NCBI RefSeq assembly: GCF_006345805.1
Contig: NC_043008.1
Location: forward strand, 27,776,001-27,840,000
From: Octopus sinensis
Taxonomy: Eukaryota
Length of the DNA: 64,000 bases
Direction of reading: 5' to 3'
The position numbers were made by a program, and so were the translations under genes. The notes under the pieces were generated by a model, which was not told the origin of the DNA, did no database searches, and was given only the letters and a program-made list of their open reading frames with translations. Positions 1,089-60,050 of this stretch are shown piece by piece; position 1 is the stretch's first letter; each line of letters starts with the position of its first letter.

Positions 1089-3494
1089 TAGATATCCAAA
1101 TAATATGTTGACGAAAGAAATAGAGATGCCGAACCACCAGCTATAACTTATATTTCTCTCAGTTATAGGCAAACGTGCACCCACGCTGGTTGCTAGTCCG
1201 ATATCGTATAACTTCATGAGAATGATTCCATGAAGATTTTTTTCTCTATGATTATATAAAGAAATGTTACATAATACAATCGAATGCTATAAACTGAGAT
1301 TTATCGCATCATCTGTGATTTTCCAGATCTTTTATTTCCCAAAGTACAAAGCGCGGCAAAAGTCTTTCCAATATTCTCGTATTGAAAACAAAAAAAATTT
1401 CACTGGAAGGCACTCATAGAAATTCGGGTGTTGCCCTCCATGCTGACTCTAGAATTTTTAGGTTAAAATTGCTCACTCTGGACCGCTATACTTAAGATTC
1501 AATATATTTAAGATTTGGTCTTGATCTTCTTAGTGGTATTGATCTTCTTAGTGGTATTCCTATAGATTTTCGGTAGGTGATTTAAAATAAATTGTATTTA
1601 TGTATTTATGCATGCATGTATATTTGTATGCATATATGTTTGTTTGAATGTACATGTGTGGGAGATGTAAATATACACATATGCTCACACATCCTCATAT
1701 ATATCTACATCTTTAAAAATACTGGTTAAAATTTTTGATACGAGACCAACAATTACCGAGCAGGGGTTATGTCGAATATATAAAGCAGAATAATTATTAT
1801 AGATGCTATTTCATTATTTTTACAAGTATGTATACATTTGAAACGCATAACACTTATGCTGAGCAGCTGGATACTACAAGGAAGATTTGACTAATTATCT
1901 ATATAAATACAAGAGAAAGAATTACATAAAATTAAAATATATTGATTTTATTCACATTACTGATTATATACGTTTACGAAACATCTCATGTTTATTTCAT
2001 TTTATATATAATCCGTGAATTAAATTAGAGATGCTAGAAACGTTGTGTGAAGAAAATAATAAAAATCTTAGAGTGTAGTGCAGAAAATGAGTGGTCGATA
2101 TTAGATGGGCGGACAATGTTCTCAGTTTCAGAGGCAATTATTTGATAGAGTCGATGATAAAGCTGATTCTAATATTACTGATGAAATTGTTGCTATAGTA
2201 TGGGTACAATGGTGTTGATACAGATGATATTTATGATTACATTCATGACAATAATGCTGCCACATGTAATGATGATGTTGGTGATTATAGAAAAGGAGTT
2301 CAGAATGAGGTAAAAAGAAAGAAAAAGGAGTTCTGAGAAACAACAGATGTAATTATTTCCTCGATAACTAAAACGTTAGTACGTAGAGACACGTGTATAG
2401 CGGCTATGCATCAATGTAAATTCTAAGAGAAACCGGCAAGATAAGATAGCATCTACAAAATAACAAAAAAATGTAGCAACAATGACAGCAACAGAAAATC
2501 GATAACAAAAATGTGATAAGAGAAAAGAGGAAGCTTGTCTTTTAATCTAAAACAGAATCAGCTTTATTCTCTTCAATTGTCGGTAATTTTGATTACAAAA
2601 TAGATATTTCTTCCTAATCTGTCTTATGTTTTAAATCTTTCCTATTTTCTAGATTTCCATTTATGTCTGATTTATTTTTAAATGAAAAATGATTTCTTTG
2701 AAAGAAAATGTTTCATATTTATAAAATTTCATGTAAATACTATCCAGAATAATATGTAAAGTTAAGAAAGAATTCTATAAAACTCTTACTACCTCCACCA
2801 ACTACAGCGCCATGAACATTGCAACCACTACCCCGACTGCCCCTACATCCACCACGATCATGACTACTGCGACTACTACAACAGGGGCAGTAGTGATAAT
2901 AATTATAAACATCATAGCAACAATAGTGATACATATTATTAATGATATCACTATAAATAGATTATTACTATGTTTAAGATTATTATTATTATCATTCTCA
3001 TCATTATCGTTAAAGAACGTTATATTGTAAATGGTAATATTTAAAAGTACTTTTATTTTCATTCCTCATATTTATTGCGTGAACAATTGCCTAGGGTATT
3101 AGAAAGTATTTAAAATTTTTTATCATATTATCCTTAATATGTTTTAAGTATTAAATTCCCTGCGTATTTTAGCATTATTCTATGAAATTTTCTTGTGTAA
3201 CGCTGAAAAATTCATTAAGTTTTACTTCACTATGAAATAATATTTAGAACACCAAAGACTAAAAGGCTGTTACTGTTATTAAACCGCCCATTTGTTTATC
3301 TATATTTGCTGATATTTGCATAAATTTTCCTTTGCTTCCTGCATTAGGTTATAACATGAAAGTTGTATGTTCTATGAGAATGCCACAAATATATTGTATA
3401 TGTTCACTGAACGACTACTACTACTATTGATGACGATGATAATGACGACGACGACGACGATGATGATGATGATGATGACAATGATGATGATAAT

Positions 3495-8424: not shown

Positions 8425-8580
8425 ACAGACCTATATTTGAGAGACGAGGAATTATGTACATTATTTACAATTGGCGGATAATTGTCGTGATATTGTTTGT
8501 TGTTAACACAACGTTTCAGCTGATATACCCTCCAGCCTTCATCAGATGTCTTGGGGTAATTTCGAACTTGAATTCTCACT
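8425..8580 (-). mobile_element. PLE terminal module (HHR family 1), tRNA head absent
   Basis: Reverse-complement match to 22470-22600 and 19920-20060. Confidence 0.8.
8505..8550 (-). ncRNA. Minimal type-I hammerhead ribozyme motif, core intact
   Basis: Minus strand: gacat CTGATGA a ggctg-gagggtatat-cagct GAAAC GTT gtgtt; stem I, stem II and palindromic ACGT stem III. Confidence 0.75.
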
Positions 8581-8622
8581 GCTCGTGTTGCTATTATTAT
8601 CATTATTATTATCATTATTATT

Positions 8623-9177
8623 GAATGAGAGAGCAGTTCATTCCATCAAAGTGACACTGGGGTAACATATACGAAGCCCAATATACCCATCATGACTACC
8701 CGTCTAATAAAGGTACACCCAGGCACATGCATCACAACCATATGTGCGCGACATGGTGATCTCATATCAAGATAAACAGCACATGACCTTGCAGGTGGGG
8801 CCCAGTTAGAATTTTCTTCAGGTTGAGTAGCCCCTCCCGCTCAAACAGTCCCTGAATAAGGGTTGTTTAAGGATGTTGAAAGAACCACCCATGTTTCCAG
8901 AGGTGAATTATTCAAACCCCAAAGAATCCCTCTCAACACATGGCTATGATGCTCCCCCACTACTTCTGCTCGTGATCAGAGATGCACATATCGTCAGCCA
9001 CTAAGGGACATGCTCAACTGGTTAAGGTCAAACAACTGACAAGGAAATCTGTGGTATTGAGCAGAATATTTGCTGTAGCCCATCTTTTATACCAAGACAA
9101 AACAATGTACATGATAACACTTCCAATCAGTTAAGATCAGAAGCCATGAGAGCCTCTGCCTGGTACTGCATCAGGGC

Positions 9178-10204: not shown

Positions 10205-11495
10205 CGAGGGACGTTCAATAAGTAATGCCCCTGACCCACTTGTAGTAATTTGATCTAGCTGAAAGTTTGCATGTGCAAATACTTCTATCTCAATAGAGTA
10301 AGTGGCAAATTACAGCTCTGAACTAATTGTGGTTTCGGATTTACAGGTATTTGAACTGAGTGAAGTGTGAAATGGAGCCTGTTGAGTGTCGAGCAGTGAT
10401 CCGGTTTTTGTATTTGAAAGGACGCACACCACGGGAGACTTTTGATGAAATGAAAGTAACTTATGGTGATGATACCCCATCATATGACCTTGTAAAACGC
10501 TGGCATCGTGAATTCAAACATGGTCGGAACTCTGTGGAAACTGCTCCCAGATCTGGTCACCCCGCTTCTGCCATTGATGAGGCATCTGTCCGTCAAGTTG
10601 AGGCTGTCATTTTGGAAGATCGACGCATAATTATTCGCCAAATAGCCCATGAGGTCAATATTAGTACCGGGTCTGTGGAAACTATCATTCATGACCATTT
10701 GCATATGCAAAAGGTGTCTGCCAGATGGATTCCCCGGTTGCTCACACCTTTCCAGAAGCAAGAACGCGTCGAGTGCTCGAGGATGAATTTGGAGATGTGC
10801 CAAGAAGATGAGTCAAAGTTTTTCAAAAGACTGATTACACAGGATGAAACCTGGGTCCATCACTATGATCCAGAGACCAAAGTCCAGTCAATGCAGTGGA
10901 AGCACCGTGACTCACCTCCTCTAAAGAAGGCAAGGGTGCAGCCCTCCGCTGGCAAGGTCATGCTCACGGTCTTCTGGGACCAGGACGGAGTAGTGATGAC
11001 AGATTTCCTGGCAAAGGGTACCACAATTACAAGAGCCTATTATGCTTCACTTTTGAGGAAATTAAGAGAAGCTATCAAAATCAAGAGGCGGGGCAAGATC
11101 AGCAAAGGCATCCTCATCCTGCAGGACAACGCTCCGGTCCACAACTCGCTTGTCGCCAGATCAGAAGCACAGGCGTATGGCTATGAACTTCTCCCCCATC
11201 CCCCTACTTTCCTGACCGTGCACCCTCTGATTTTCCCCTCTTCCCAGTCATGAAGTTGTTTTTGAAAGGAAAGCGTTTCCCAGATGATGCAGCCTTGATT
11301 TCTGAAGTCACGTTGAGGTTGGAGGACCAAGCTGGTGTCTTCTACAGAAACGGTCTCCAGAGCTGCATCAAACGATGGTAGAAATGCGTAAATCTGGGTG
11401 GTTCCTATGTTGAAAAAGACTATAACTGTGCCAAATTTTGTTGCTCTACTGCTATAGGAAGTGGGTCAGGGGCATTACTTATTGAATGCCCCTCG
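10205..11495 (+). mobile_element. Full-length mariner (DD34D) element, ~1.29 kb
   Basis: ~37-bp TIRs (cgagggacgttcaataagtaatgcccctgacccactt / aagtgggtcaggggcattacttattgaatgcccctcg), TA at the right end, transposase inside. Confidence 0.95.
10372..11420 (+). pseudogene. Mariner transposase with one frameshift (~11205) and one late stop (~11378)
   Basis: WIPRLL, ITQDETWVHHYDPE, QDNAPVH; HPP..PD.APSDF is split by the frameshift. Confidence 0.92.
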
Positions 11496-12269: not shown

Positions 12270-12445
12270 CGGTTCTAGTTTAAAAATATTATTTATATTA
12301 TTTACATTTGATGGATATTTGTCCACATCTTTGTTGTTAACACAACGTGTTGGCTGATATACCCATTAGCATTCATTAGGTGTCTTGAGGAAATTTCGAA
12401 CCTAGGTTCTCATTCCTAAGATATATTTCAATGTTGTTGTTGTTA
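12270..12445 (-). mobile_element. PLE terminal module (HHR family 1, core mutated), 3' half
   Basis: Matches 43900-44050; its tRNA-head remnant appears at 18526-18552. Confidence 0.75.
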
Positions 12446-12469
12446 TTATTTTTGGTATTATTATTATTA

Positions 12470-12677: not shown

Positions 12678-13230
12678 GAGTGAGAGAGCAGTTCATGCCA
12701 TCAGTGACACTGGGGTAACATATACGAAGCCCAATATACCCATCATGACTACCCGTCTGATAAGGGTGCACCAGGCACATGCATCACAACTATATGTACG
12801 CGACATGGTGATCTCATATCAAGATAAACAGCACATGACCTTGCAGGTGGGGCCCAGTTAGAATTTTCTTCAGGTTGAGTAGCCCATCCCGCTCAAAAGG
12901 TCCCTGAATAAGTGGTGTTTAAGGATGTTGAAAGAACCACCCATGTTTCCAGAGGTGAATTATTCAAACCCCAAAGAATCCCTCTCAACACACGGCTATG
13001 ATGCTCCCCCACTACTTCTGCTCGTGATCAGAGATGCACATATCGTCAGCCACTAAGGGACATGCTCAACTGTTTAAGGTCAAACAACTGACAAGGAAAT
13101 CTGTGGTATTGAGCAGAATATTTGCTGTAGCCCATCTTTTATACCAAGACAAAACAATGTACATGATAACACTTCCAATCAGTTAAGATCAGAAGCCATG
13201 AGAGCCACTGCCTGATACTGCATCAGGGCA
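12678..13230 (-). mobile_element. ~560-bp non-coding (AAT)n-targeted element, copy 2 (full length)
   Basis: Near-identical to 8623-9181. Confidence 0.85.
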
Positions 13231-16991: not shown

Positions 16992-18307
16992 CAGTAGTTT
17001 TATTTTTATAGCGTGCTTTCACTTCACTACCGAGCACAGCTCTGTGTGTCTTGGGTATGTGCTGTGATTTGTTGTGATGCTCTGATGGTTATTGTATGGA
17101 AAGTGTTCTGCGTAGGATGTGTGCAGTGCCTAGTAGTGCAATTTTCTGTATGTTATATGTGTTTGTAAGTCCTGGTGTTTTTGTTATGTATTTGTCTGAA
17201 TATTTTTTATCACGCCTAATGCACCTACTATGATAGGAATTGTTTCTGTTTTCAGATTCCACATTCTAGTTACCTCTATTTCCAGGTCTTTGTATTTTGA
17301 GAGTTTCTCCATTTCTTTTAGAGACACGTTGTCATCTGCCGGTATTGTTACATCAATTAGAAAGCATTTTTTTCTTCATGATCTCTGACAACTATATCTG
17401 GTCTGTTGGCCTTAATTTCTCTATCTGTGTGTATCGGCATATCCCATAGTATGGTTGCTTTCTCGTTTTCTGTGACCGTTTCTGGTGTGTGCCTATACCA
17501 TCTTTTTTCTGTTGTTATTCCATAATGTTGGCATAGCTTCCAATGTATGTAGGTTCCACCTCTGTCATGTCTGTGAATATATTCCTTCTTAGCCAAGACT
17601 GAGCAGCTAGAGATAATATGATTTATTGTTTTTTGTCCATCTCCACATATTCTGCAGTTACTTGTAATATTTCTTTTCATTACATGTTTTTGGTAATTTC
17701 TGGTGGGGAGGCTTTGGTCTTGTGCTGCAATTAAAAATCCCTCTGTTTCTGCTTTGAGTCCTGAGCGTCTCAACCATTGCTGGGATTTTTCTTTGTCTAT
17801 TTCTTTTGCGTTTAGTTTAGTCCAGTATTTACCATGAAGGGGCTTTTCTTGCCATCGTTTTATCATGGTTCGTTGCTGTTCTATTTTTAATTTGGATTTC
17901 ATTTGTTTTATAGCTTTTGTTGTTTCTTCATCTTCTTCTTCTTCTTCATGTTTATTAGGTGGTATGATTTATTGTTTGTATTTGTCAGCTTCCTTAAATA
18001 TTGAGAACATTTTTTTGTTTTGCTCGTGTTTTGCCGCTGGATCAGATTTCCTTCCTTCTGAAGTAGATATTTTTGCAGTCCTATGGTGGTTATTTTATAG
18101 TAGTTTTCCAGCTGTATAAGGCCTCTACCACCTTCTATACGTTGTATATATAGTTTTTCTATGTCAGATTTTGGGTGATGCATCCTAGATCCTGTCATTA
18201 TTTTTCTTGTTTTCCTGTCTATTTTGGTCAGTTCATTTCGTGTCCAGTTAAGGATAGTGTAGCTGTAACTTATAACTGGGACAGCTAAAGTGTTGATACC
18301 TATTATC
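16992..18307 (-). mobile_element. 5'-truncated R4/Dong LINE (family B)
   Basis: HHPKSDIEKLY..GGRGL, CCHC knuckle CRICGDGQKTINHIISSC, RLE RPDIVV. Confidence 0.93.
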
Positions 18308-18466: not shown

Positions 18467-18506
<40 letters not shown>

Positions 18507-18577
18507 GTTATTATTATTAGCATTATTCATGTTACTGCATGGAATCGAACTCAGGGCATAATTATAATAATAATAAC

Positions 18578-18654: not shown

Positions 18655-19341
18655 ATGGCTTCTGACCTTAACTGATTGGAAGTGTTATCATGTATATTGT
18701 TTTGTCTTGGTATAAAAGATGGGCTACAGCAAATATTCTGCTCAATACCACAGATTTGATTGTCAGTTGTTTGACTTTAACCAGTTGAGCATGTTCCTTA
18801 GGGGCTGATGATATGTGGATGGCTTCTGACCTTAACTGATTGGAAGTGTTATCATGTACATTGTTTTGTCCTGGTATAAAAGATGGGCTACAACAAATAT
18901 TCTGCTCAATACCACAGATTTGCTTGTCAGTTGTTTGACTTTAATCAGTTGAGCATGTTCCTTAGTGGCTGACGATATGTGCATCTCTGATCACGAGCAG
19001 AAGTATTGGGGGAGCATCATAGCCATGTGTTGAGAGGGATTCTTTGGGGTTTGAATAATTCACCTCTGGAAACATGGGTGGTTTTTCAACATCATTAAAC
19101 AATCCTTATTCAGGGACCTTTTGAGCAGGATGGGCTACTTAATCTGAAGAAAATTCTAACTGGGCCCCACCTGCAAGGTAATGTGCTGTTCATCTTGATA
19201 TGAGATCACCATGTCGCGCACATTTGGTTGTGATGCATGTGCCTGGTGTACCCTTATCAAGCGGGTAGTCATGATGGGTATATTGGGCTTCGTACATTTT
19301 ACTCCAGTGTCACTTTGATGGCATGAACTGCTCTCTCACTC
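18655..19341 (+). mobile_element. ~560-bp element, copy 3 (5'-truncated, first ~165 bp duplicated in tandem)
   Basis: atggcttctgacc starts twice (~18655 and ~18819); intact 3' end ctctcactc(aat)n. Confidence 0.85.
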
Positions 19342-19376
19342 AATAATAATAATATAATAATAATAATAATAATAAT

Positions 19377-19825
19377 ACAAATATTGTGCTAAATACCACA
19401 TATTTGCTTGTCAGTTGTTTGACCTAACCAGTCGACCCTGTCCCTTGATTGCTGACGATATGTGCATCTCTGGTCACGAGTGGAAGTAGTGGGGAAGCAT
19501 CATACCCATGTGCAGAGAGGGGTACTTTGGGGTTTGAATAATACACCTCTGGAAACATGGGTGTTACGTTCAACAACCTTAAACAACCCTTATTCAGGGA
19601 TCTTTTGAGCGGGATGTGTTACTCGACCAGAAAAAAATTCTAACTGAGCCCCACATGTACGGTCGTGTACTGTTTGTCTTGATATGAGATCACCATGTCG
19701 CGCACACATGGTTGTGATGCATGTGTCTCTTGTACCCTTATCAGACAGGTCGTCATGATGGGTATACTGGACTTCGTATATTTTACCCCAGTGTCACTTA
19801 GATGGCATGCACTGTTCTCTCACTC
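19377..19825 (+). mobile_element. ~560-bp element, copy 4 (5'-truncated, more diverged)
   Basis: Homologous to the other copies; 3' end intact. Confidence 0.82.
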
Positions 19826-19836
19826 AATAATAATAA

Positions 19837-19904
<68 letters not shown>

Positions 19905-19905
<1 letters not shown>

Positions 19906-20060
19906 CAACAACATCGAAAGATACGTCAGGATTGAGAACCCAGGTTCGAAATTTCCCCAATACACCTGACGAAGGCTGTAGGGGTTTATCAGCCTAAACG
20001 TTGTGTTAACAACAAACAAGATGAAGACAAATATCCGTCAACTGTAAATATTGTAAATAA
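19905..20060 (+). mobile_element. PLE terminal module (HHR family 1, G12 mutated)
   Basis: acac CTGACGA a ggctg..cagcc TAAAC GTT gtgt at ~19963-20006. Confidence 0.78.
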
Positions 20061-21156
20061 TGAAAAGAATGAAAATTCGCTTATTTTTTAAATACAAGGA
20101 ATACTTTTATTCATCGAATTATGCACCGATACTGTCAATACACTATCAGTTGAAATTTACAACCTTTGTGGATTCGTCCGTAAATATCTTAATACATATG
20201 TTTTTACTAGTTGAAATAAAAAGAAAACTGCTAAAACTGATAGAATGTAAAGTACAATTTATAGCAAGAGAAAGTACTCTACCTGTGTTCACGAACTGAT
20301 CTGAAGTATATAAAATTGATGAACGAAAAATATTCTTAAATATGCGTACAATTCCGAGATGCTAGTTTTGTTCAGGCAAAAATCGTTTTCATTTCTCTGC
20401 ATCTGAAATCAGTAGAAAAACTCACACGCCATGAGAATAATTCCGCAGAGACATTGTTTCCACGCCGCTACCAACACGATATACTCGATGTGATGAACAA
20501 TACAATGATCAGATGTAACATTTATTGAAAATCTTTAGATATTTTACATCAGCATTTCTGACATGATGTATAAGAATTAATCGATATCGTATTCGTGATT
20601 ATCGTTCGGCATTATCAAAACTTTCAGCATGTACGGCGATGACCATAAATCAGACGGTTTTGTCCTCGAAGAAATAGTTTATCAAAAGTTGGTTTCCATT
20701 TATTTCAATAAGTATGCCGGCATAGTCTGGCATAGCAAAGACACAACAAGCTGGCCCTCTCATACTGATATTAATTTCCACTTGAAGAGATCCTATAAAA
20801 GAATAGTATTAAAGACTTTGAATTGAGCCATATATCACCCCGTCACTCTCACTGCTTGCCTATTCTTTTACACATATGCAGATGTGCAGACGCACTACGA
20901 CACATACGTTTGTTGCAGAACACACATATGAGGGAATATGTAAAGAAATCTAAGCAAACGTCTATTAACACTAGGTTATTAATTTTCTATTCCGCAGGCA
21001 GCTACTCTTAAATATCAGTAGGCAGACCAGAAATCACTTTGTATAGATTCTGATGTATGTATGTATGTATGTATGTAATTACGTTTGTATGTACTCACAC
21101 ACATACCCACATGCATATATGTGTTTGTGTGTGTGTGTGTGTGTGTGTATGTGTGT

Positions 21157-21221
<65 letters not shown>

Positions 21222-21805
21222 TGATATCAGAAACAGAATGGCAATTTTACGCCTTTTCTTTTCTTTCCGTGGAAAATCCATGCACCATTACTACTTCTTA
21301 GGTTTCGGCAATACAATGAATGATTGAACTCTCGTCCCGGAAGAGAAAAAAAGACAAGCTTTCCCTTGTTTACCTCTTTAGATGTTTATCTTCATACAAC
21401 CTCTAGTTTTAACATATTTCGTGCAACGCACTACTCGATTCACTTCGCCAGCATAACTTGATGTATTGGATATTTCCCTACTGATTTTCACTTATATAAG
21501 AATCACATACGCATACTACAGGCACATTTAAAAGCATGACTTAAACAAGGAGTATAAAAGCACCCCAGAACAGACGAAATTATTTTCATGAAAAGCATTC
21601 GAAATGCGAACGTTATTTTATAAAGCGAAATTGGCTTTCTATATAAGCATAGGCGCATGTAATGCAAATGTATACATGTGCAATTCACTAAGCATGCACA
21701 AAACAAATATGAGACTTCTTTGAAAGAGTTTTATATATGGGAGATGAGGAATTATGAACATTATTTACATTATCTACGTTATCCACTCCAATTATGAAGA
21801 TGTGA

Positions 21806-22312
21806 GAGGATGAGGGCAATAAATTGTCCACGGTCTATCCACCCTATGTCAAAGGCCTCTTCGAAAAGATACAAAAACGATATGTGGCACATATGTGACA
21901 CATCAGGACAGTATTCAAGAGTAAAACAGCACTTCGCAAACATCTTCGCGTAAAACCACCAATAGAAGAGAATATGACCAAAGACTGCGTGTACTCCATC
22001 CCATGCAGCTGCGGTAGGTTATACAAAGGTGAAACATGTCGCACCCTCAAAATAAGGGTAGGCGAACATCGCAAAGCTGTGACACGAGAGGATATCGATA
22101 AATCAAGCATAGATGACCATGTGTAGAAAAATGGAGACCACCTCCACCTGAGGGATGAAGTTAAAATAACAGACAGAGAAGACCACTGGAAAATACGAAA
22201 ACTTAAAGAAGCAGCACGCATGCTAGGACACAACAACCTCCTAAGCAGACCGAGTGCAGATATGAGCAGCATATGGAAAACGATATTAAGGAAGGATAGA
22301 AAAAAATATTAG
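21806..22312 (+). pseudogene. PLE C-terminal GIY-YIG endonuclease remnant
   Basis: Manual translation PYVKGLFEKIQK..IRTVFKS..CVYSIPCSCGRLYKGETCRTLKIRVGEH..RKLKEA; one internal stop and a frameshift; absent from the ORF track. Confidence 0.9.
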
Positions 22313-22349
22313 ATTAATAAGCTCTAAAATTCACTCCATAATTTCCCAC

Positions 22350-22425
22350 GGGCATATGGCGTAGTGGTTAAGAGCGCGGGCTACTAACCCCAAGATTCCG
22401 AGTTCGATTTCCGAGTTCAGTGACC
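22350..22425 (+). ncRNA. tRNA-derived segment with Pol III A/B boxes (not a functional tRNA)
   Basis: A box TGGCGTAGTGG, loop CT-ACT-AA, B box GAGTTCGATT; acceptor stem pairs poorly. Confidence 0.75.
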
Positions 22426-22503
22426 TGAATAATAATAATAAGAAGAAGAAAAATAACATCGAAAAGTACCTTAGGAATGAGAATCCAGGTTCGAAATTTC
22501 CCC

Positions 22504-22548
22504 AAGACACCTGAAGAAAGCTGGAGGGTATATTAACCGAAACGTGTT
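22504..22548 (+). ncRNA. Hammerhead motif (family 1, partly degenerate)
   Basis: acac CTGAAGA aagctg..taacc GAAAC gtgtt. Confidence 0.6.
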
Positions 22549-23441
22549 AACAACAAACAAGATGAGGACAAATATCCGTCGAATATAAATAATATACATA
22601 ATATCTTTTGAAAGAATCTATGTCACATAAAATTTCAATAACACTTATACTGAGAGAAACACATGATTAAATATTACTTTATCGACGCCGAAACCAAAAA
22701 ATGCAATGGCAACTTCGATGACATTTGAAATCAAACCGTAAGAGCAAACGAAATGCCGCTAATCATCTTGCCCTGAATAATTATTGAACTGACATAACTC
22801 CTATTGCCAGCAGAACATTATACACACATAAGAACATTGAAAGAAATACATTTTAACACAAACAACGAAAGTATGAATCTGGCGATATAATACAGTCCCG
22901 CTGTTTATCAACATAAAGGTACACAGCACTATCAATACATAAACATAGAGATGCTTATATAAAAGGAAGTAGTACTTTGAAAATCAAATAAATCTTCGGA
23001 CATAAAAACCTGCACTGAGAGACATTCACACTGAAAGGCATTGCATGTATACCATCGCTCAGAAATCTCATATTAAATCTATAAAGCCAAACACACACCA
23101 TGCATAACAGACATTCGTAACTATACAGAAAGAGATGACATGGCAGTTAAACAGCATATTGTGATAAAATGAAATCACTATGAGTTCCGAAATAAACATA
23201 CAACAGAAATTGATGCTGGGCCCTGTAACAACGCACATATACACAGGCATATACATACGCTCACTCAGAGAAACACTCTGACACGCAAACTTAATTTCAA
23301 AAGAAGCTGGAAAGCTTCTGTGTGATAAATTTCTGTATCTTTAATTTATCTTATTTGACTTTTTCCTTTACTGTTCATCTTCAATTGAGTCGCCCATATA
23401 TTCTTTGAGATGAATGGCATACATCAGACTCATAAAATATA

Positions 23442-31579: not shown

Positions 31580-32111
31580 ATAAAATATTAGGAAATAAAT
31601 CCAAACTTACAGGGAAAAATCAGATTTAGGATTGAATCCAATTTTATAGCAAAATAATATATTATATTAAATTAGAGATAAAACCACTATTAGGCAAATC
31701 ATACAATGAAAAACTTAAGCCAATACATAAGATTAATTAATTTATATTATTTAAATATATATCAAACTTATTAAAAAAGATAATTAATATAACACTACGA
31801 TCGTTTCATAGCTGTTCAATTCTTAAAATTTTCGAGTTACAGTCATTCTTCAGGTGGTTTAAATATTTAACTTGGCGAGGTTTAATCAATTGATTAAACC
31901 TCGCCAAGTTAAATATTTAAACCACCTGAAGAATGACTGTAACTCGAAAATTTTAAGAATTGAACAGCTATGAAACGATCGTAGTGTTATATTAATTATC
32001 TTTTTTAATAATTTTGATATATATTTAAATAATATAAATTAATTAATCTTATGTATTGGCTTAAGTTTTTCATTGTATGATTTGCCTAATAGTGGTTTTA
32101 TCTCTAATTTA

Positions 32112-32120
<9 letters not shown>
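31580..32120. mobile_element. Head-to-head inverted PLE termini forming a spacerless palindrome (~229-bp arms)
   Basis: Centre at 31889/31890; arms 31661-31889 and 31890-32118 almost identical; one HHR per arm; lies in (AT)n. Confidence 0.85.
31920..31988 (+). ncRNA. Hammerhead motif (family 2); mirror copy at 31791-31859 on the minus strand
   Basis: aaccac CTGAAGA atgactgt..acagctat GAA ACGATCGT A gtgtt; palindromic stem III, GUA site. Confidence 0.7.
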
Positions 32121-32150
<30 letters not shown>

Positions 32151-40211: not shown

Positions 40212-40672
40212 AATATAATATAATTCAAAACTTAGGGGGAAACATTCGATTTATCAATTTTAAATCAAATTTCACAATATATACTATTTGTATAAAATTT
40301 AGAGAAAAAACTCTATTAAACAATTCGATTTTGTCTTCTTAACAGCTTAAATACATTTTTCTATCTATCTATCAATTTTTTCAATAATTTTTACTTACGT
40401 CATGTTTATACGCGATAAATTTCTTATAAGCGATTAAGTGCAACATATTACGTTTAAAATTTTATTTAGAATTTCTTCGAGGAGATAAGGTAAGTTTTTA
40501 TTTTAAGTAATACTGTTAAATTTTATTCTATTATTTAATGTTAAAACACGTATTTTTTCTATATTAGTTAATTTATAAGTTAAGATAGTACATTTATTAT
40601 ATTATTTATATTGTTTTATCATAATAATAATAATAATAATAATAATGATAATAATAATAATAATATAGTAAT

Positions 40673-41012
40673 CAACGTGTCTCTAAAAGAAATGGAGAAA
40701 CTCTCAAAATACAAAGACTTGGAAATAGAGATAACTAGAATGTGGAACCTGAAAACAGAAACAATTCCTATCATAGTAGGTGCATTAGGCATGATAAAAA
40801 AATATTCAGACAAATACATAACAAAAACACCAGGACTTACAAACACATATAACATACAGAAAATTGCACTACTAGGCACTGCACATCCCTACGCAGAACC
40901 CTTTCCATACAATAACCATCAGAGCATCACAACAAATCACAGCACATACCCAAGGCACACAGAGCTGCGCTCGGTAGTGAAGTGAAAGCACGCTATAAAA
41001 ATAAAACTACTG
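40673..41012 (+). mobile_element. R4/Dong family B 3' end
   Basis: KEMEKLSKYKDLEIEITRMWNLKTETIPIIVGALG plus 3'UTR between (AAT)n tracts. Confidence 0.92.
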
Positions 41013-43899: not shown

Positions 43900-44133
43900 T
43901 ACATTCTTTATTTACATTCGACGGATATTTGTCTTAATCTTCTTCGTTGTTAACATAATGTTACCGTTCGTATACCCTCCAGCCTTCATCAGGTATCTTG
44001 GAGAAATTTCGATCCTTGGTTCTCATTCGTAAGGTAATTTTTCGATGTTATTGTTGTTAGTGTTCAAGTCACTGCTTGGAATCGAACCCGCAATCTTGGG
44101 GTTAGTAGCCCGCGCTCTTAACCACTACGCCAT
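43900..44133 (-). mobile_element. Solo tRNA-head + HHR module (SINE-like)
   Basis: Minus strand atggcgtagtggttaagagcgcgggctactaacccc..ggttcgattcc..acctgatgaaggctggagggtata; no adjacent ORF. Confidence 0.85.
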
Positions 44134-50632: not shown

Positions 50633-51192
50633 AAATGCTCTGATGCCGTAACAGGCAGGGGCTTTCGTGGCTTCTGATCTTAACTGATTGGAAGTGTTAT
50701 CATGTACATTGTTTTGTCTTGGTATAAAAGTTGGGGTACAGCAAATATTCTGCTCAATACCACAGATTTGCTTGTCAGTTGTTTGATCTTAACTAGTTGA
50801 GCATGTCCCTTAGTGGTTGATGTGCATCTCTGATCACGTGCAGAGGTAGTGGGGATACATAGCCATGTGTTGAGAGGGATCCTTTAGGGTTTGAATAATT
50901 CACCTCTGGAAACACAGAGGTTTCATTCAACATCCTTAAACAACACTTTTTCAAGGAACTTTTGAACGGGATAGGTTTCTGGACCAGAAGAAATTTCTCA
51001 CTACCCCACACACACACACACCTGCAAGGTCATGCGCTGTTTATCTTGATATGAGATCACATTGTCGCGCATATATGGTCGTTATGCATGTGCCTAGTGT
51101 ACCCTTATCAGACGGGTAGTCATGATGGGTATACTGGGCTTCGTGTATTTTACCCCAGTGTCACTTTGATGACATGCACTGCACTCTCGCTC
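50633..51192 (+). mobile_element. ~560-bp non-coding element, copy 5 (full length)
   Basis: Same 5' (aaatgcyctgatgc) and 3' (ctctcrctc) ends; (AAT)n flanks. Confidence 0.85.
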
Positions 51193-53489: not shown

Positions 53490-54986
53490 CAGTAGTTTTA
53501 TTTTTATAGCGTGCTTTCACTTCACTACCGAGCGCAGCTGTGTGCCTTGGGTATATGCTGTGATTTGTTGTGATGCTCTGATGGTTATTGTATGGAAAGT
53601 GTTCTGCGTAGGATGTGTGCAGTGCCTAGTAGTGCAATTTTCTGTATGTTATATGTGTTTGTAAGTCCTGGTGTTTTTCTTATGTATTTGTCTGAATATT
53701 TTTTTATCATGCCTAATGCACCTACTATGATAGGAATTGTTTCTGTTTTCAGGTTCCACATTCTAGTTATCTCTATTTCCAGGTCTTTGTATTTTGAGAG
53801 TTTCTCCATTTCTTTTAGAGACACGTTGTCATCTGCCGGTATTGATACATCAATTAGAAAGCATTTTTTTCCTTCATGATCTCTGACAACTATATCTGGT
53901 CTGTTGGCCTTAATTTCTCTATCTGTGTGTATCGGCATATCCCAGAGTATGGTTGCTTTCTCGTTTTCTGTGACCATTTCTGGTGTGTGCCTATACCATC
54001 TTTTTTCTGTTGTTATTCCATAATGTTGGCATAGCTTCCAATGTAAGTAGGTTCCAACTCTGTTATGTCTGTGAATATATTCCTTCTTAGCCAGGAGTGG
54101 GCAGCTAGAGATAATATGATTTATTGTTTCTTGTCCATCTCCACATATTCTGCAGTTACTTGTAATATTTCTTTTCATTACATGTTTTTGGTAATTTCTG
54201 GTGGGGAGGCTTTGGTCTTGTGCTGCAATTAAAAATCCCTCTGTTTCTGCTTTGAGTCCTGAGCTTCTCAACCATTGCTGGGATTTTTCTTTGTCTATTT
54301 CTTTTGCGTTTAGTTTAGTGCAGTATTTACCATGAAGGGGCTTTTCTTGCCATCGTTTTATCATGGCTCGTTGCTGTTCTATTTTTAGTTTGGATTTCAT
54401 TTGTTTTATAGCTTTTGTTGTTTCGTCATCGTCTTCTTCTTCTTCTTTGTGTTTATTAGGTGGTATGATTTTTTGTTTGTATTTGTCAGCTTCCTTAAAT
54501 ACTGAGAACAGTTTTTTGTTTTGCTCGTGTTTTGCTGCTATCTGGATCAGTTTTCATTCCTTCTGAAGAAGGTATTTTTGCAGTCCTATGGTGGTTATTT
54601 TATAGTAGTTTTCCAGCTGTATAAGGCCTCTACCACCTTCTATACGTTGTATATATAGTCTTTCTATGTCAGATTTTGTGTGATGCATCCTAGATCATGC
54701 TAGTATTTTTCTTGTTTTCCTATCTATTTTGGACAGTTCATTTCGTGTCCAGTTAAGGATATTGTAGCTGTAACTTATAACTGGGACAGCTAAAGTGTTG
54801 ATACCTATTATCTTGTTTTTAGCATTGAGCTCTGTTTTTAGTATTGATCTAACTCGTCTATAATATTCTTTTTTTATTTTCTCTTTCATTTGTGTGTGTT
54901 GTGTCTTATCTAGTTCATGGATTCCTAAGTATTTGTAAGTTTGGCTTTGGTCTAATTCTTTTATTTCATTGGTTTTATCTAGTGTG

Positions 54987-56309: not shown

Positions 56310-58360
56310 GTCATTTACTTTTAATCTGCATGTTTGATGCAATCACCTGCCGGGGCACACCCAGCGCCCTAGGGCAAGTGAAGGTTAAGAGTTGTTGAAA
56401 TATAGCTGAAACTTGGGGAGGGGAAGTAGAGATATATCTCCATGCAATGCAAACACAAACATTTACATTGATAGGGTTTTTCTAAGGATGTGGGCAGTAC
56501 TTGTTAGCACAATCTTTTGGATTTCCTTGAGACATGGTTCTCCAGGGATATTGTCTAGGTGTTTCTGACATCCCTTTTTTATCATACCTAGGGCACCTAC
56601 AATAACAGGAACAGTTTTTGTTTTAAGATTCCACATCCTCTGTATTTCGATTTCCAGGTCCTTATATTTACTAAGTTTGTCAAATTCCTTGACAGATACA
56701 TTTTTATCAGTGGGGACGCTTACTTCTATTAGTCTGCAGGTATTTTCTTCCCTGTCTTTAACAATTATGTCTGGTCGATTAGCCTTGATCGTTCTGTCAG
56801 TGTTGACTGGAAAATCCCAGAGGATGGTGACATCTTTACCTTCAACAACTGGCTGAGGATGGTGTTCATACCAGTTAGCAGGAGTGTCGGATTTGTAGTG
56901 TTTACATATCTTCCAATGTATATACTGTCCTACCCTATCGCGGCGATTTTTGTATTCGTTTGGTGTCAGCACAGGACATCCCGAAACGAGATGGTCTATC
57001 GTTTCGTCAAATGTGTCACAGAATCTGCATTTAGGGTCAGTACCGTTTCGGAGAACGTTAGCCTGGTAATTTCTGGCAAACAAGCTTTGATCTTGTGCTG
57101 CCATTATGAAACCTTCAGTCTCTGCTTTCAATCCAGAGCTCTTCAGCCACTGATGGGTTGTTGCTTGGTCTACATCAGCATTTTGGCTTCGGAGAATGTA
57201 TTGTCTATGCAGGGGCTTCTGGCTCCACCGCCTCTCAATTTGATTCTGCCCGTTCTTTTTTGCAGTCTGCTTGATTCGCTTTGCTTGCTTGGTAGCAGTG
57301 GTTTACGGCTCTTCATCTGATTCAAGGTTAATGTCTAGTTCCCTTTCGAACTTATAAGCTTCCTTGACAATAGAATGCAGCTTTTTGCTGCTTTCGTGTT
57401 CGCACACACGTCGCAGCATCCAGTCCTTTGTACTAGATAGGTACCTGTTCATTCCTACAGTAGAGGTCTTATAGCACAGCTCTAATTGCATCATTCCTCT
57501 CCACCCGCTGCTTCTAGGTAGGTACAAGCGGTCTACATCTGCCTTAGGGTGGTGCATGCTCTTGGATGTCAGTAACTTTCTTGTCTTCCTGTCCAAGCGT
57601 TGGAGTTCCGTAAGGTTCCAGTTAATGATGTTAAAACAGTACTGGACTACTGGAAGTGCCAGGGTGTTAATGGCATCAATGCAATTTTTGGAGTTGAGTT
57701 CAGTCTTCAGTACAAGCCTTATTCTCCTATAGTATTCCTTTCTTATTTTTTCCTTCATAGTAGCATGATGTATACCATCTCCTTCGTTGATTCCTAGGTA
57801 TTTGTAACTTTCTTGTGGGTCAAGTTCCTTGATGGTAGTGTCAATATCTAATTTAACAGAAGCTGTTTGCCTGAGCTTGCCTCTTACAAAAGTTGCTTTA
57901 GCACACTTATCAAGGCCAAAATCCATTCCGATATCATTGCTAAACTCTTTAACAGTTGTTAGCAGCCCTTCTAGCTCTTGGTCATTCCTGGCAAACAGCT
58001 TCAGGTCGTCCATATAGAAAAGGTGGTTTATTAACTTACTGAAAACTTTGTACCATATCTGGTACTATCCAATTCGTTTGAGAGTGGGATCAGTGCCATG
58101 CAAAAAAGTAATGGAGAGAGGGAGTCACCTTGAAAGATGCCTCGTTTGATGTTGATGCTGTTGGACTGGCTCATCCCATTACTATGGCTTATAAAGAGAC
58201 GTGTGTTCCACATGGTCATGCTATTCTCTAAGAATTTTGAGACGACAGGAGAGATCTTGTAAATCTCAAGGGCCTTGAGTATCCATTTATGTGGGACACT
58301 GTCATACGCTTTCCTGTAGTCTATCCATGCCATACTCAGGTTTTTGTTTTTGCTCCGGCA
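56310..58360 (-). mobile_element. 5'-truncated R4/Dong family C (RT + CCHC + RLE)
   Basis: AWIDYRKAYDSVPH, RGIFQGDSLSPLLF, YMDDLKLF, CRFCDTFDETIDHLVSGC, RPDIIV. Confidence 0.96.
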
Positions 58361-58405
<45 letters not shown>

Positions 58406-58464
58406 ATCATAATCATCCTCATCACTATCGCCTCGTCGTCGTCGTCTTCACCGTCATCATCATC

Positions 58465-60050
58465 ATCTTTATTATTTTGTGTAGATTCAGGTTCGGTTTA
58501 AACCTGGTAAGTGGGTTACTTTCCTTACCTTTAAACACCTTTTGGTGTCCACAAACTTTCTCCTGTATTTCTAGTGTTTAGAACGATCCTGATAATCCTT
58601 GCTGCCCAAAGCAACCGAATTTCTGTAGGGGCTCTACAGAGTGTAATATTCCAAATTCCTTGCGCCATCTGTCTATGTCTTTGCTTACTGTTCCTAATGC
58701 ACCAATTATTAGAGGCACGACCTTTACAGTTCTGATGTTTTCCGTCTTCTTTCTTTACGATCCTAGAATCAATCGGGCATGATGTCGCTTTTCTTTATCT
58801 ATAACTGTTAAATGAAGACTATTATTTTATAACTTCTCCCTTTGTATAAGTAAGCCCTACAAAAGCTTACATTGCTCTGACTCCAGTAGTCTGTCGACTC
58901 GGTGATTTTACCACGTGTTTCCAGCATCAAATCCCAATTTCTGGCGCAGTTTCCATGTACAACCTGGCCGGGCTTCCATTTCTTTTCTTCCTCCTGTGCC
59001 AACGTGGGACATTCTGTACAATTGATGCCTCTTTCTCGTTCCAATTTCCACATGCCCTATAGTTTTTTACATATTATCTCCGTATTCATTTTTTGTCAAG
59101 TTGATTATTTTCATCTCTTGATCTTTGGCTGATTCAATTAGGCTCTCTGTTTCTTTTTTTAATTGCCGATCTTTTAACCCAGCCCAGGCGTTTGTTCCAC
59201 ATACGCCTTCAGGCTATCCAGGGGTATCCAGTCAATCTGTTTGCCGTGCTCTCTTTATATTTTATTCTTGTTCTTTTCTCCTATTATGCACTTCATCACC
59301 TGTTCTTCATTTATTGTTTGTCCTTAGTAGATTTTGTGTGCTGTTCTGCAAATACTCTACTAGGCTTCTTCTTGCCAACTGTATACATTCTCTCACTTCC
59401 ATTAAGCCTCTTCCGCCTTTGTCTTTCCTCAAGTAAAGCCGGTTGATATCAGATTTTGGATGGTGGACTCCATAGATTGTTAGCAGCTTTTTAGTTTTTC
59501 TGTCATGTTTCTTTATAACGTCTATGGTCAAGTCTATAAGTCCAACTTCATATCTGATTACAGCCACTGTTCTTGAATTTATTGCTCCAATAAGATTTTT
59601 AGATTTCAGCTTTGGCTACGATCATTTTCTTACACTCTGTGTGTACTCCTTACTAGTAATTTGTTTCATTTCTTCATTTGTTTTAATTTCGTCTGCTTCC
59701 TGTATTCTGAAGTGCTTATACTTCTGTCCTTTCTGAATTGCGCTCATTGTTTGCCCATTTGGCTTTTCAGTTTGCCGGTTTCTTTAAAATTTTTGTCTCT
59801 TCATATTTAATACAGCGCCCTTTTCTTTGCTATATCCCATACCTATACCTATAACATCGGAGAAAATATGAGTATACGGAGAGTATATACAAGTCTTTCA
59901 AGCTGTTTCTTTTTTTTTTCGCATAAACCTTTATATCATCCATGAAAAGGAGATGATTGAACTGACCATTTCCTTTCCCAAATCGTAAGCAATTTTAACT
60001 TTTCGTAATATCATAATGAGCGGTATGAGGAACGCAATAACAGATTACAG
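58465..60050 (-). mobile_element. Decayed R4/Dong (family D)
   Basis: NHLLFMDDIK, HHPKSDINRLYL..GGRGL, ECPTLAQEE. Confidence 0.85.

What the first reader, a model, noticed from the sequence alone, without database searches (positions are those of the whole stretch)
21725..22601. Penelope-like element ending in a tRNA-like Pol III head + (AAT)n + hammerhead module that also occurs alone
Seen: about 40 nt after the GIY-YIG stop (22312) come a tRNA-derived segment with A/B boxes (22350-22425), a short (AAT)n and a hammerhead motif (22504-22548). An inverted copy of the 3' tail sits at the 5' junction. The module occurs without any ORF at 43900-44133, and its HHR half occurs at 8425, 12270 and 19905. 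Known: PLE pseudo-LTRs carry minimal HHRs, and Schistosoma Sm-alpha is a Pol III, tRNA-related repeat with an HHR. Inference: this PLE carries a Pol III promoter in its own terminus, so it could yield a PLE-mobilised, ribozyme-processed SINE/retrozyme. I do not know of such a linked pair described in cephalopods, but I have not searched.
Basis: partly seen in the sequence, partly recalled or inferred. Interest (0 to 1): 0.8.

Follow-up and report, generated by a model that had tools for sequence, protein, structure and literature searches.

The report
Penelope retrotransposon with tRNA-headed end repeat
This jumping gene carries a piece of an arginine tRNA gene at the very start of its terminal repeat, and most sampled copies of that piece begin there, so the piece likely serves as a built-in RNA polymerase III promoter, which our literature searches did not find described for this class of element.

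Summary
21728-22603 is a broken, 5'-truncated Penelope-like element (PLE): GIY-YIG ORF end, tRNA-Arg-like head with A/B boxes, (AAT)n, minimal hammerhead, inverted 5' tail, 9-bp target duplication. The head is integral: 25 of 30 ORF-anchored loci carry it; five break off earlier. Of 90 head copies, 58 begin in a 24-nt zone around the head start, none 60-79 nt upstream, and 10 run into the ORF. In tandem copies the module leads into the next ORF, whose ATG reads through the hammerhead, so the module is the pseudo-LTR. Solo copies share subfamily variants and age with ORF copies and rarely form direct tandems: solo pLTRs, not a separate SINE or retrozyme lineage. The focal hammerhead lacks its cleavage site. 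Best reading (0.6): the pLTR's tRNA head is a Pol III promoter setting the RNA 5' end. Rival (0.28): captured passenger whose hairpin causes fold-back. The 2.7-kb sense strand lacks T4 terminators (P about 0.03), hinting at Pol III read-through of the ORF. A distant PLE (L311) shows the same box-(AAT)n-hammerhead order. Transcription and cleavage are untested.

The parts
21719..21727 (+). left copy of a 9-bp target-site duplication
   Evidence: same 9 letters at 22607-22615
21727..21777 (-). inverted copy of the element's 3' end plus 'tail' (the tail is the start of the next tandem unit)
   Evidence: BLAST to 8432-8469 and to the 3' ends of many genome copies; the tail continues into the ORF in L157/L201 and L161
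21780..22312 (+). 5'-truncated PLE ORF end (GIY-YIG endonuclease), broken by three in-frame stops
   Evidence: translation; longer copies give the RT (RVT_1 E=1.5e-9) and 52-67% identity to RT+EN proteins P0001-P0008
22313..22349 (+). spacer; its last ~20 nt pair with the A-box region (hairpin, -13.4 kcal/mol in copy L020) and resemble a decayed fold-back copy of the head
   Evidence: RNA fold; comparison with fold-back junctions
22350..22427 (+). tRNA-Arg-derived head with A box (22357-22367) and B box (22402-22410, altered in this copy); the family's 5' boundary lies about 6 nt upstream (22344)
   Evidence: alignment to genomic tRNA-Arg(ACG) and Arg(TCT); 5'-end map
22428..22458 (+). (AAT)n/(AAC)n linker of variable length; target of other insertions
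22477..22479 (+). ATG that opens the RT-EN ORF when a tandem unit follows (reads MRTQVRNFPKTP.. through the hammerhead)
   Evidence: open into the ORF N-terminus in natural copies L408, L414, L423; P0005 starts with the same TPDDG..PKRCVNN motif
22506..22548 (+). minimal type I hammerhead; this copy lacks 3 nt at the cleavage site and has stem II mismatches
   Evidence: column counts over 163 copies; alignment
22549..22603 (+). 3' end of the pseudo-LTR
22607..22615 (+). right copy of the target-site duplication
43908..44133 (-). solo pseudo-LTR starting at the A box; hammerhead core decayed
19883..20061 (+). hammerhead half behind inserted ~550-bp repeats; an inverted head remnant at 18499-18552 may be the same insertion's 5' arm
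12282..12462 (-). hammerhead half behind an inserted ~550-bp repeat; core decayed
8432..8622 (-). hammerhead half with tail, behind an inserted ~550-bp repeat

Best explanation
This is a Penelope-like retrotransposon whose pseudo-LTR begins with a tRNA-Arg-derived A/B-box segment, which likely acts as an internal RNA polymerase III promoter and likely sets the 5' end of the RNA that the element's own reverse transcriptase copies. Shown: the unit is head - (AAT)n - ATG/hammerhead - RT-EN ORF - spacer - head again, about 2.5 kb, in partial tandems; most sampled head copies are solo pLTRs that begin at the head and carry PLE insertion marks. Inferred: transcription starts about 13 nt upstream of the A box; the RT primes near the pLTR 3' end or tail, runs to that RNA end, then folds back on the short palindrome, jumps to another template or joins the target. 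Copying from the first pLTR of a tandem gives a SINE-like solo copy; copying from the second gives an ORF-bearing copy. The head probably arose once by capture of a tRNA-derived RNA during reverse transcription, leaving its fold-back arm as the spacer. The hammerhead is the ordinary dimer-type PLE motif; its activity here is untested.
For: Head present in 25 of 30 ORF-anchored loci and 27 of 30 loci found with a distant PLE protein; the rest break off before the head is complete. 5' ends of 90 B-box-anchored copies: 22 inside the head, 58 at 36-59 nt from the anchor (tRNA +1 = 40), 0 at 60-79, 10 in the ORF; 0.070 ends per nt against 0.0075 and 0.0024. Only 1 of 63 head-start copies shows the true spacer just upstream (3 regex hits, 2 judged chance), against 33 of 40 ORF-linked copies: a hard edge, not a smear along the hairpin. 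Two template-jump copies end at the same G, 13 nt before the A box (L402, L418). Copies that start at the head run on into the ORF N-terminus (L408, L409, L417). Both boxes fit the consensus that 30 of 30 genomic tRNAs fit. No T run of 4 or more in 2,700 majority columns of the sense strand (4.9 expected); 1 against 4.5 in synonymous shuffles of natural frames (P=0.026); none of 13 control PLE frames is depleted at P<0.05. L311, a distant PLE, has the same order.
Against: No transcript evidence: RNA-seq of a related organism shows equal depth on both strands and no start sites (standard libraries, so weak). PLE pLTRs without tRNA heads also have fixed 5' edges with palindromes and occur solo (Arkhipova 2013, passages), so the pile-up alone does not need Pol III. 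The spacer-A box hairpin could stop or redirect the RT, and 6 of 90 ends lie at its 3' foot. T4 absence is modest: P=0.07 under a first-order Markov null, G4 runs are also absent, and some headless control families also have none (L325, L340). L201 and L410 extend upstream through the head, so longer RNAs exist. One copy, L129, joins the ORF stop to the (AAT)n with no spacer or head. An uncapped Pol III RNA would be hard to translate (established knowledge).
Confidence: 0.6

Rival explanations
1. The head is a captured tRNA-SINE fragment with no promoter role. The element is transcribed by Pol II or host read-through, and the 5' edge of solo copies is set by RT stalling and self-priming at the palindrome/hairpin, as in other PLEs.
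For: Palindromic pLTR edges and solo pLTRs are known in PLEs without tRNA heads. Hairpin of -13.4 kcal/mol over the edge. Many junctions are perfect fold-backs. RNA-seq is strand-symmetric. An earlier AI note reports 47 of 60 short stubs in another PLE family (e1-7858657, unchecked).
Against: Ends stop short of the hairpin's 5' arm (spacer kept in 1 of 63); template jumps end at one base; the edge lies where a Pol III start is expected; both boxes are kept while 25 of 73 tRNA positions differ; T4 runs are depleted; L311 repeats the layout.
Confidence: 0.28
2. The solo module is an independent PLE-mobilised SINE or retrozyme with its own master copies, processed by its hammerhead.
For: Solo copies outnumber ORF-linked heads about 6 to 1 (63 to 10), have SINE anatomy and PLE insertion marks; Sm-alpha pairs a Pol III promoter with a hammerhead (review passage); retrozymes derive from pLTRs (Li 2026).
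Against: No solo-specific variant: the two linked haplotypes occur in both classes (head A/G 48:28 versus 58:55, P=0.14; hammerhead T/A 40:20 versus 58:32, P=0.86) at equal divergence (4.3 versus 4.1%). Direct hammerhead pairs in 4 of 142 loci (two are one place), inverted pairs in 50. The tail at one end comes from a downstream ORF unit. A monomer cut at the hammerhead would lose either its promoter or its 3' end.
Confidence: 0.1
3. A tRNA SINE inserted by chance behind this one PLE copy.
For: One headless ORF copy exists (L129).
Against: All 40 scored junction hits span ORF end and head; ORF-anchored samples carry it; 82 of 90 heads are followed by the hammerhead part within 800 nt.
Confidence: 0.02

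Closest known systems
EN+ Penelope-like elements, Penelope/Poseidon type (Arkhipova 2013 PMC3846280; Craig 2021 PMC8557442; passages read)
   Same: Single RT + C-terminal GIY-YIG ORF, partial tandems forming pLTRs, inverted 5' arm, 30-40-bp tail at one end, 9-bp TSD, ORF start inside the pLTR, palindrome at the pLTR edge, solo pLTRs.
   Different: Their pLTR promoters are described as TATA/Inr-like or Pol II internal; here the pLTR opens with tRNA-derived A/B boxes.
Minimal type I hammerheads of metazoan PLEs (Cervera and de la Pena 2014, PMC4209133; passages and first quarter read)
   Same: CUGAnGA/GAAA core, 4-5-bp helix I, long helix II with an unpaired 5' nucleotide, palindromic minimal helix III.
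   Different: None in the motif; activity not tested here.
TRIMp3: Cassandra, Helenus, Ajax (Kojima 2024, PMC10886601; passages read)
   Same: Small-RNA-derived Pol III promoter inside a terminal repeat, proposed to arise by SINE capture.
   Different: Those are short non-autonomous LTR elements, and the paper argues that autonomous partners must use Pol II; here the repeat belongs to a protein-coding PLE.
Schistosoma Sm-alpha / Sj-alpha (seen only through a review passage, PMC6765202; the original paper was not held)
   Same: Pol III-type promoter followed by a hammerhead.
   Different: Canonical hammerhead, tandem arrays, not described there as a PLE terminus; here a minimal hammerhead, dispersed monomers or inverted pairs, identical to the pLTR.
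Non-LTR retrozymes (Cervera 2020 PMC7229834, passages; Li, Clavereau and Pollet 2026 bioRxiv 10.64898/2026.07.22.740005, first fifth and passages)
   Same: pLTR-related, type I hammerhead, 170-400 nt, PLE as proposed partner.
   Different: Defined by head-to-tail tandems with two or more hammerheads; the 2026 text has no mention of tRNA, Pol III or promoter.
Octopus tRNA-derived SINEs OK, OR1, OR2 (Ohshima and Okada 1994; not held; names OK and OR1 recalled)
   Same: tRNA-derived heads; an Arg origin for OR1/OR2 is recalled, not checked.
   Different: OR2 is a CORE SINE (PMC4758252 passage); no sequence comparison was possible, so identity of the solo module with OR1 is not excluded.

Membership tests
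EN+ Penelope-like element | single ORF with RT and C-terminal GIY-YIG endonuclease | tested here: met
   RVT_1 hit; EN motif and alignment with RT+EN proteins; Pfam gave no GIY-YIG hit for the fragments
EN+ Penelope-like element | partial tandem forming pLTRs; inverted 5' arm; tail at one end | tested here: met
   L201 tandem; inverted arms and tails, never both tails in 90 copies
EN+ Penelope-like element | minimal type I hammerhead in the pLTR | tested here: met
   column counts over 163 copies
Penelope/Poseidon clade | placement with named reference elements; no Cys-rich linker between RT and EN | tested here: inconclusive
   no Cys linker seen in the alignment; the tree had no named references
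tRNA-derived SINE | tRNA-derived head with A and B boxes at the 5' end | tested here: met
tRNA-derived SINE | lineage independent of the autonomous partner (own masters, diagnostic variants) | tested here: not met
   shared haplotypes and age in 87 ORF-linked and 118 solo copies
tRNA-derived SINE | 3' end borrowed from a LINE, simple-repeat tail | tested here: not met
   the 3' part is the PLE pLTR; (AAT)n is internal
tRNA-derived SINE | transcription by Pol III | not testable with these tools
   available RNA-seq shows no start sites
Non-LTR retrozyme | head-to-tail tandem units each with a hammerhead | tested here: not met
   direct pairs in 4 of 142 loci, inverted pairs in 50
Non-LTR retrozyme | self-cleavage and circular RNA | not testable with these tools
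   needs in vitro assay and northern blot
TRIMp3 (Cassandra/Helenus/Ajax) | true LTRs with PBS and PPT, no ORF | tested here: not met
   the repeat is a pLTR overlapping an RT-EN ORF

The most novel reading that the evidence does not exclude
An autonomous, protein-coding retrotransposon whose whole ~2.7-kb RNA is made by Pol III from a tRNA promoter in its own pseudo-LTR, with the ORF purged of T4 terminators; the design has arisen more than once among PLEs (this family and L311), and its solo pLTRs are SINEs in the making.
Probability: 0.3. Interest if true: 0.85.

Novelty: new variant of a known kind. Interest (0 to 1): 0.62.

Why it matters
How PLEs are transcribed and where their RNA starts is poorly known, and Pol III is thought to serve only short non-autonomous elements. 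A tRNA promoter at the edge of a PLE pLTR gives a direct test of that rule, shows a route from an autonomous element to a SINE-like population without a LINE partner, and bridges pLTRs, retrozymes and Sm-alpha-type repeats. In practice, roughly 20,000 copies (rough estimate) would be filed as tRNA SINEs although they are PLE termini.

Tried and rejected
Rfam and ARAGORN found neither head nor hammerhead. RNA: no RNA holder listed by index; raw RNA-seq of organism B laid on L008 gave symmetric strands and no begin/end pile-ups; the second lay used wrong coordinates and missed the head, showing only that organisms E, F and G hold the tail and ORF start. Viral contigs gave no relative. A distant PLE protein found only this family among its 30 best loci, so there is no in-genome control family. 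Relaxed ARAGORN was pure noise. The first A/B-box regexes failed a positive control and were corrected. The IQ-TREE run did not finish; the FastTree tree has a weak root and L311 on a long branch, so independent origin is not shown. 3' ends of ORF N-terminal pieces do not fall at T-rich sites: no sign of internal Pol III stops. Ohshima and Okada 1994 and Ferbeyre 1998 were not held; Repbase, Dfam and SINEBase could not be searched; no supplements were read, and those of Craig 2021 or the Octopus repeat papers may hold this family. Rejected: chance insertion, tandem retrozyme, independent SINE lineage.

Full report
Setting. The window lies at G000:C12:27776001-27840000 of a 2.72-Gb genome.

Observation. 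21728-22603 holds an inverted tail, a 5'-truncated ORF end with three in-frame stops, a tRNA-like head, (AAT)n and a hammerhead motif, between 9-bp direct repeats. The four other window copies are as described, except that the three 'halves' sit behind an unrelated ~550-bp repeat inserted in the (AAT)n. The focal hammerhead lacks 3 nt at the cleavage site. Rfam and ARAGORN call neither part. The head aligns to the genome's tRNA-Arg(ACG) at 48 of 73 positions, score 60-64 against shuffles of mean 19, and to Arg(TCT) at 50; five other isotypes gave 39-46. Column counts over 163 copies give the minimal type I hammerhead of Cervera and de la Pena 2014.

The element. Longer copies encode an RT (RVT_1) and a GIY-YIG-type domain, 52-67% identical to unnamed proteins P0001-P0008. 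L201 is a partial tandem: ORF end, head, (AAT)n, hammerhead, full ORF, head, (AAT)n, hammerhead, with a unit of about 2.5 kb. The 'tail' is the start of the downstream unit. An ATG just after the (AAT)n reads through the hammerhead into the ORF in natural copies L408, L414 and L423, and P0005 begins with the same motif. The module is therefore the pseudo-LTR, as in Arkhipova 2013, where the pLTR holds the first codons (passages).

Is the head integral? All 40 scored junction hits span ORF end and head (biased by the query). Of 30 loci found with the ORF alone (one is the window, two are duplicates), 25 carry the head and 5 break off inside the ORF. With a distant protein, 27 of 30 carry it (some loci overlap the earlier set) and 3 break off at different points. 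One copy among the 20, L129, has lost spacer and head.

Where do copies begin? Of the first 30 of 385 exact A-box matches, 25 start at window-equivalent 22343-22355, 3 carry ORF and 2 start in the spacer or at the stop. For an unbiased map I took 90 of the first 91 listed of 1,278 B-box matches (two are arms of one insertion). 22 end inside the head, 58 at 36-59 nt from the anchor (tRNA +1 is 40), none at 60-79 and 10 in the ORF; 11.3 would be expected in the peak zone at the rate inside the head. The 14 ends scored at 51-59 are, by my reading of the printout, mostly alignment into the fold-back arm. Only 1 of 63 head-start copies keeps the true spacer, against 33 of 40 ORF-linked copies. Two template-jump products end at the G 13 nt before the A box. 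39 of the 63 have an inverted arm or inverted tail upstream. Among 30 loci spanning tail and ORF start, three begin at the head (L408, L409, L417) and one reads through from upstream (L410), as L201 does. From 7 exact hammerhead 35-mers in 82 copies and 1,932 genome matches, the family has very roughly 20,000 copies.

Independent SINE or retrozyme? No sign. In 87 ORF-linked and 118 solo copies the two linked haplotypes occur in both classes and non-CpG divergence is 4.3 versus 4.1% (head) and 5.3 versus 4.7% (3' part); four sites differ at P=0.004-0.035, three of them CpG. Of 150 pattern-anchored loci, 142 hold a hammerhead; 4 have a direct pair within 700 nt (two are one place) and 50 an inverted pair.

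Pol III signs. Both boxes match a pattern met by 30 of 30 genomic tRNAs. Over 2,700 majority columns from 73 pieces there is no sense-strand T run of 4 or more (4.9 expected by composition; 2.6 under a first-order Markov model, P=0.07); G runs are also absent. Synonymous shuffles of natural frames give 1 against 4.5 (P=0.026) and, for overlapping pieces, 0 against 4.5 (P=0.005); none of 13 control PLE frames (15 tried) is depleted at P<0.05. Control PLE ORFs hold 323 runs against 225 expected, though a few families have none. This is suggestive only. RNA-seq of organism B covers ORF, head and hammerhead equally on both strands with no start sites, as expected of copies carried in host transcripts.

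A second case. Among 86 PLE loci from other organisms, 22 had both ORF end and hammerhead, in 11 families. One, L311, has A and B boxes 45 nt apart, then (AAT)n, ATG and hammerhead; 0 of 5,000 shuffles matched. It is an intact tandem, 38% identical to P0005, and does not group with this family, but its branch is long. Its unit has two T4 runs just after the hammerhead and is not significantly depleted.

The rival. The spacer pairs with the A-box region (-13.4 kcal/mol), and palindromic edges and solo pLTRs are known in PLEs with no tRNA head. Stalling and self-priming could thus set the edge. I weigh it lower because the ends stop short of the hairpin's 5' arm and sit where a Pol III start is expected (established knowledge of type 2 promoters). 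The spacer also resembles a decayed fold-back of the head, which suggests capture of a tRNA-derived RNA during reverse transcription (inference).

Literature. Ten searches found no PLE with a tRNA-derived promoter in its pLTR; the library lacks most subscription papers, and Repbase and Dfam were not searchable. Closest are TRIMp3, Sm-alpha and pLTR-derived retrozymes. An earlier AI note describes a tRNA-bearing repeat inserted Penelope-style in a coral, without a ribozyme (unchecked).

Verdict. A new variant of a known kind: a PLE whose pLTR opens with a tRNA-derived promoter-like head. Anatomy, integrality and the 5' edge are shown; Pol III use (0.6), whole-unit Pol III transcription (0.3) and ribozyme activity are inferred or untested. 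Interest 0.62.

Noticed in passing
window 8623-9176, 12678-13228, 18655-19825, 50640-51192; also L033, L089, L439: A ~550-bp non-coding repeat, 86-97% identical between copies, that sits in (AAT)n tracts, including the PLE's own linker (found in 9 of 150 pattern-anchored loci); no partner identified, possibly a Dong/R4 dependant.
   Followed up: partly
window 17357-18300, 40584-40985, 53585-54553, 56463-58447, 59307-59615: Several fragments of RT elements with a zinc-knuckle/endonuclease end, flanked by (AAT)n; Dong/R4 type by recall.
   Followed up: no
window 10360-11253: Mariner transposase ORF of 297 aa (Transposase_1 and HTH_48 hits).
   Followed up: no
G000:C2:3121912-3157897 (L428-L434): Tandem array of about 87 tRNA-Arg(ACG) matches, mostly at ~206-bp spacing.
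   Followed up: no
L311:2814-3020: Intact tandem PLE from another organism with A/B boxes, (AAT)n, ATG and hammerhead in the same order; a hairpin with a TTTT loop follows at 3059-3074.
   Followed up: partly
L401, L402, L403, L404, L413, L418, L422: Short tandems in which an ORF N-terminal piece of 270-530 nt is joined to a second pLTR, consistent with RT template jumps.
   Followed up: partly
window 31657-32122: Perfect 233-bp inverted repeat with no spacer; may be an assembly artefact.
   Followed up: no
L390-L396: PLE ORFs inside records filed as bacterial MAGs, most likely animal contamination.
   Followed up: no
L316:2513-2580: tRNA-like sequence (Rfam 38.6 bits) about 420 nt upstream of a truncated PLE; probably a separate SINE.
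   Followed up: no
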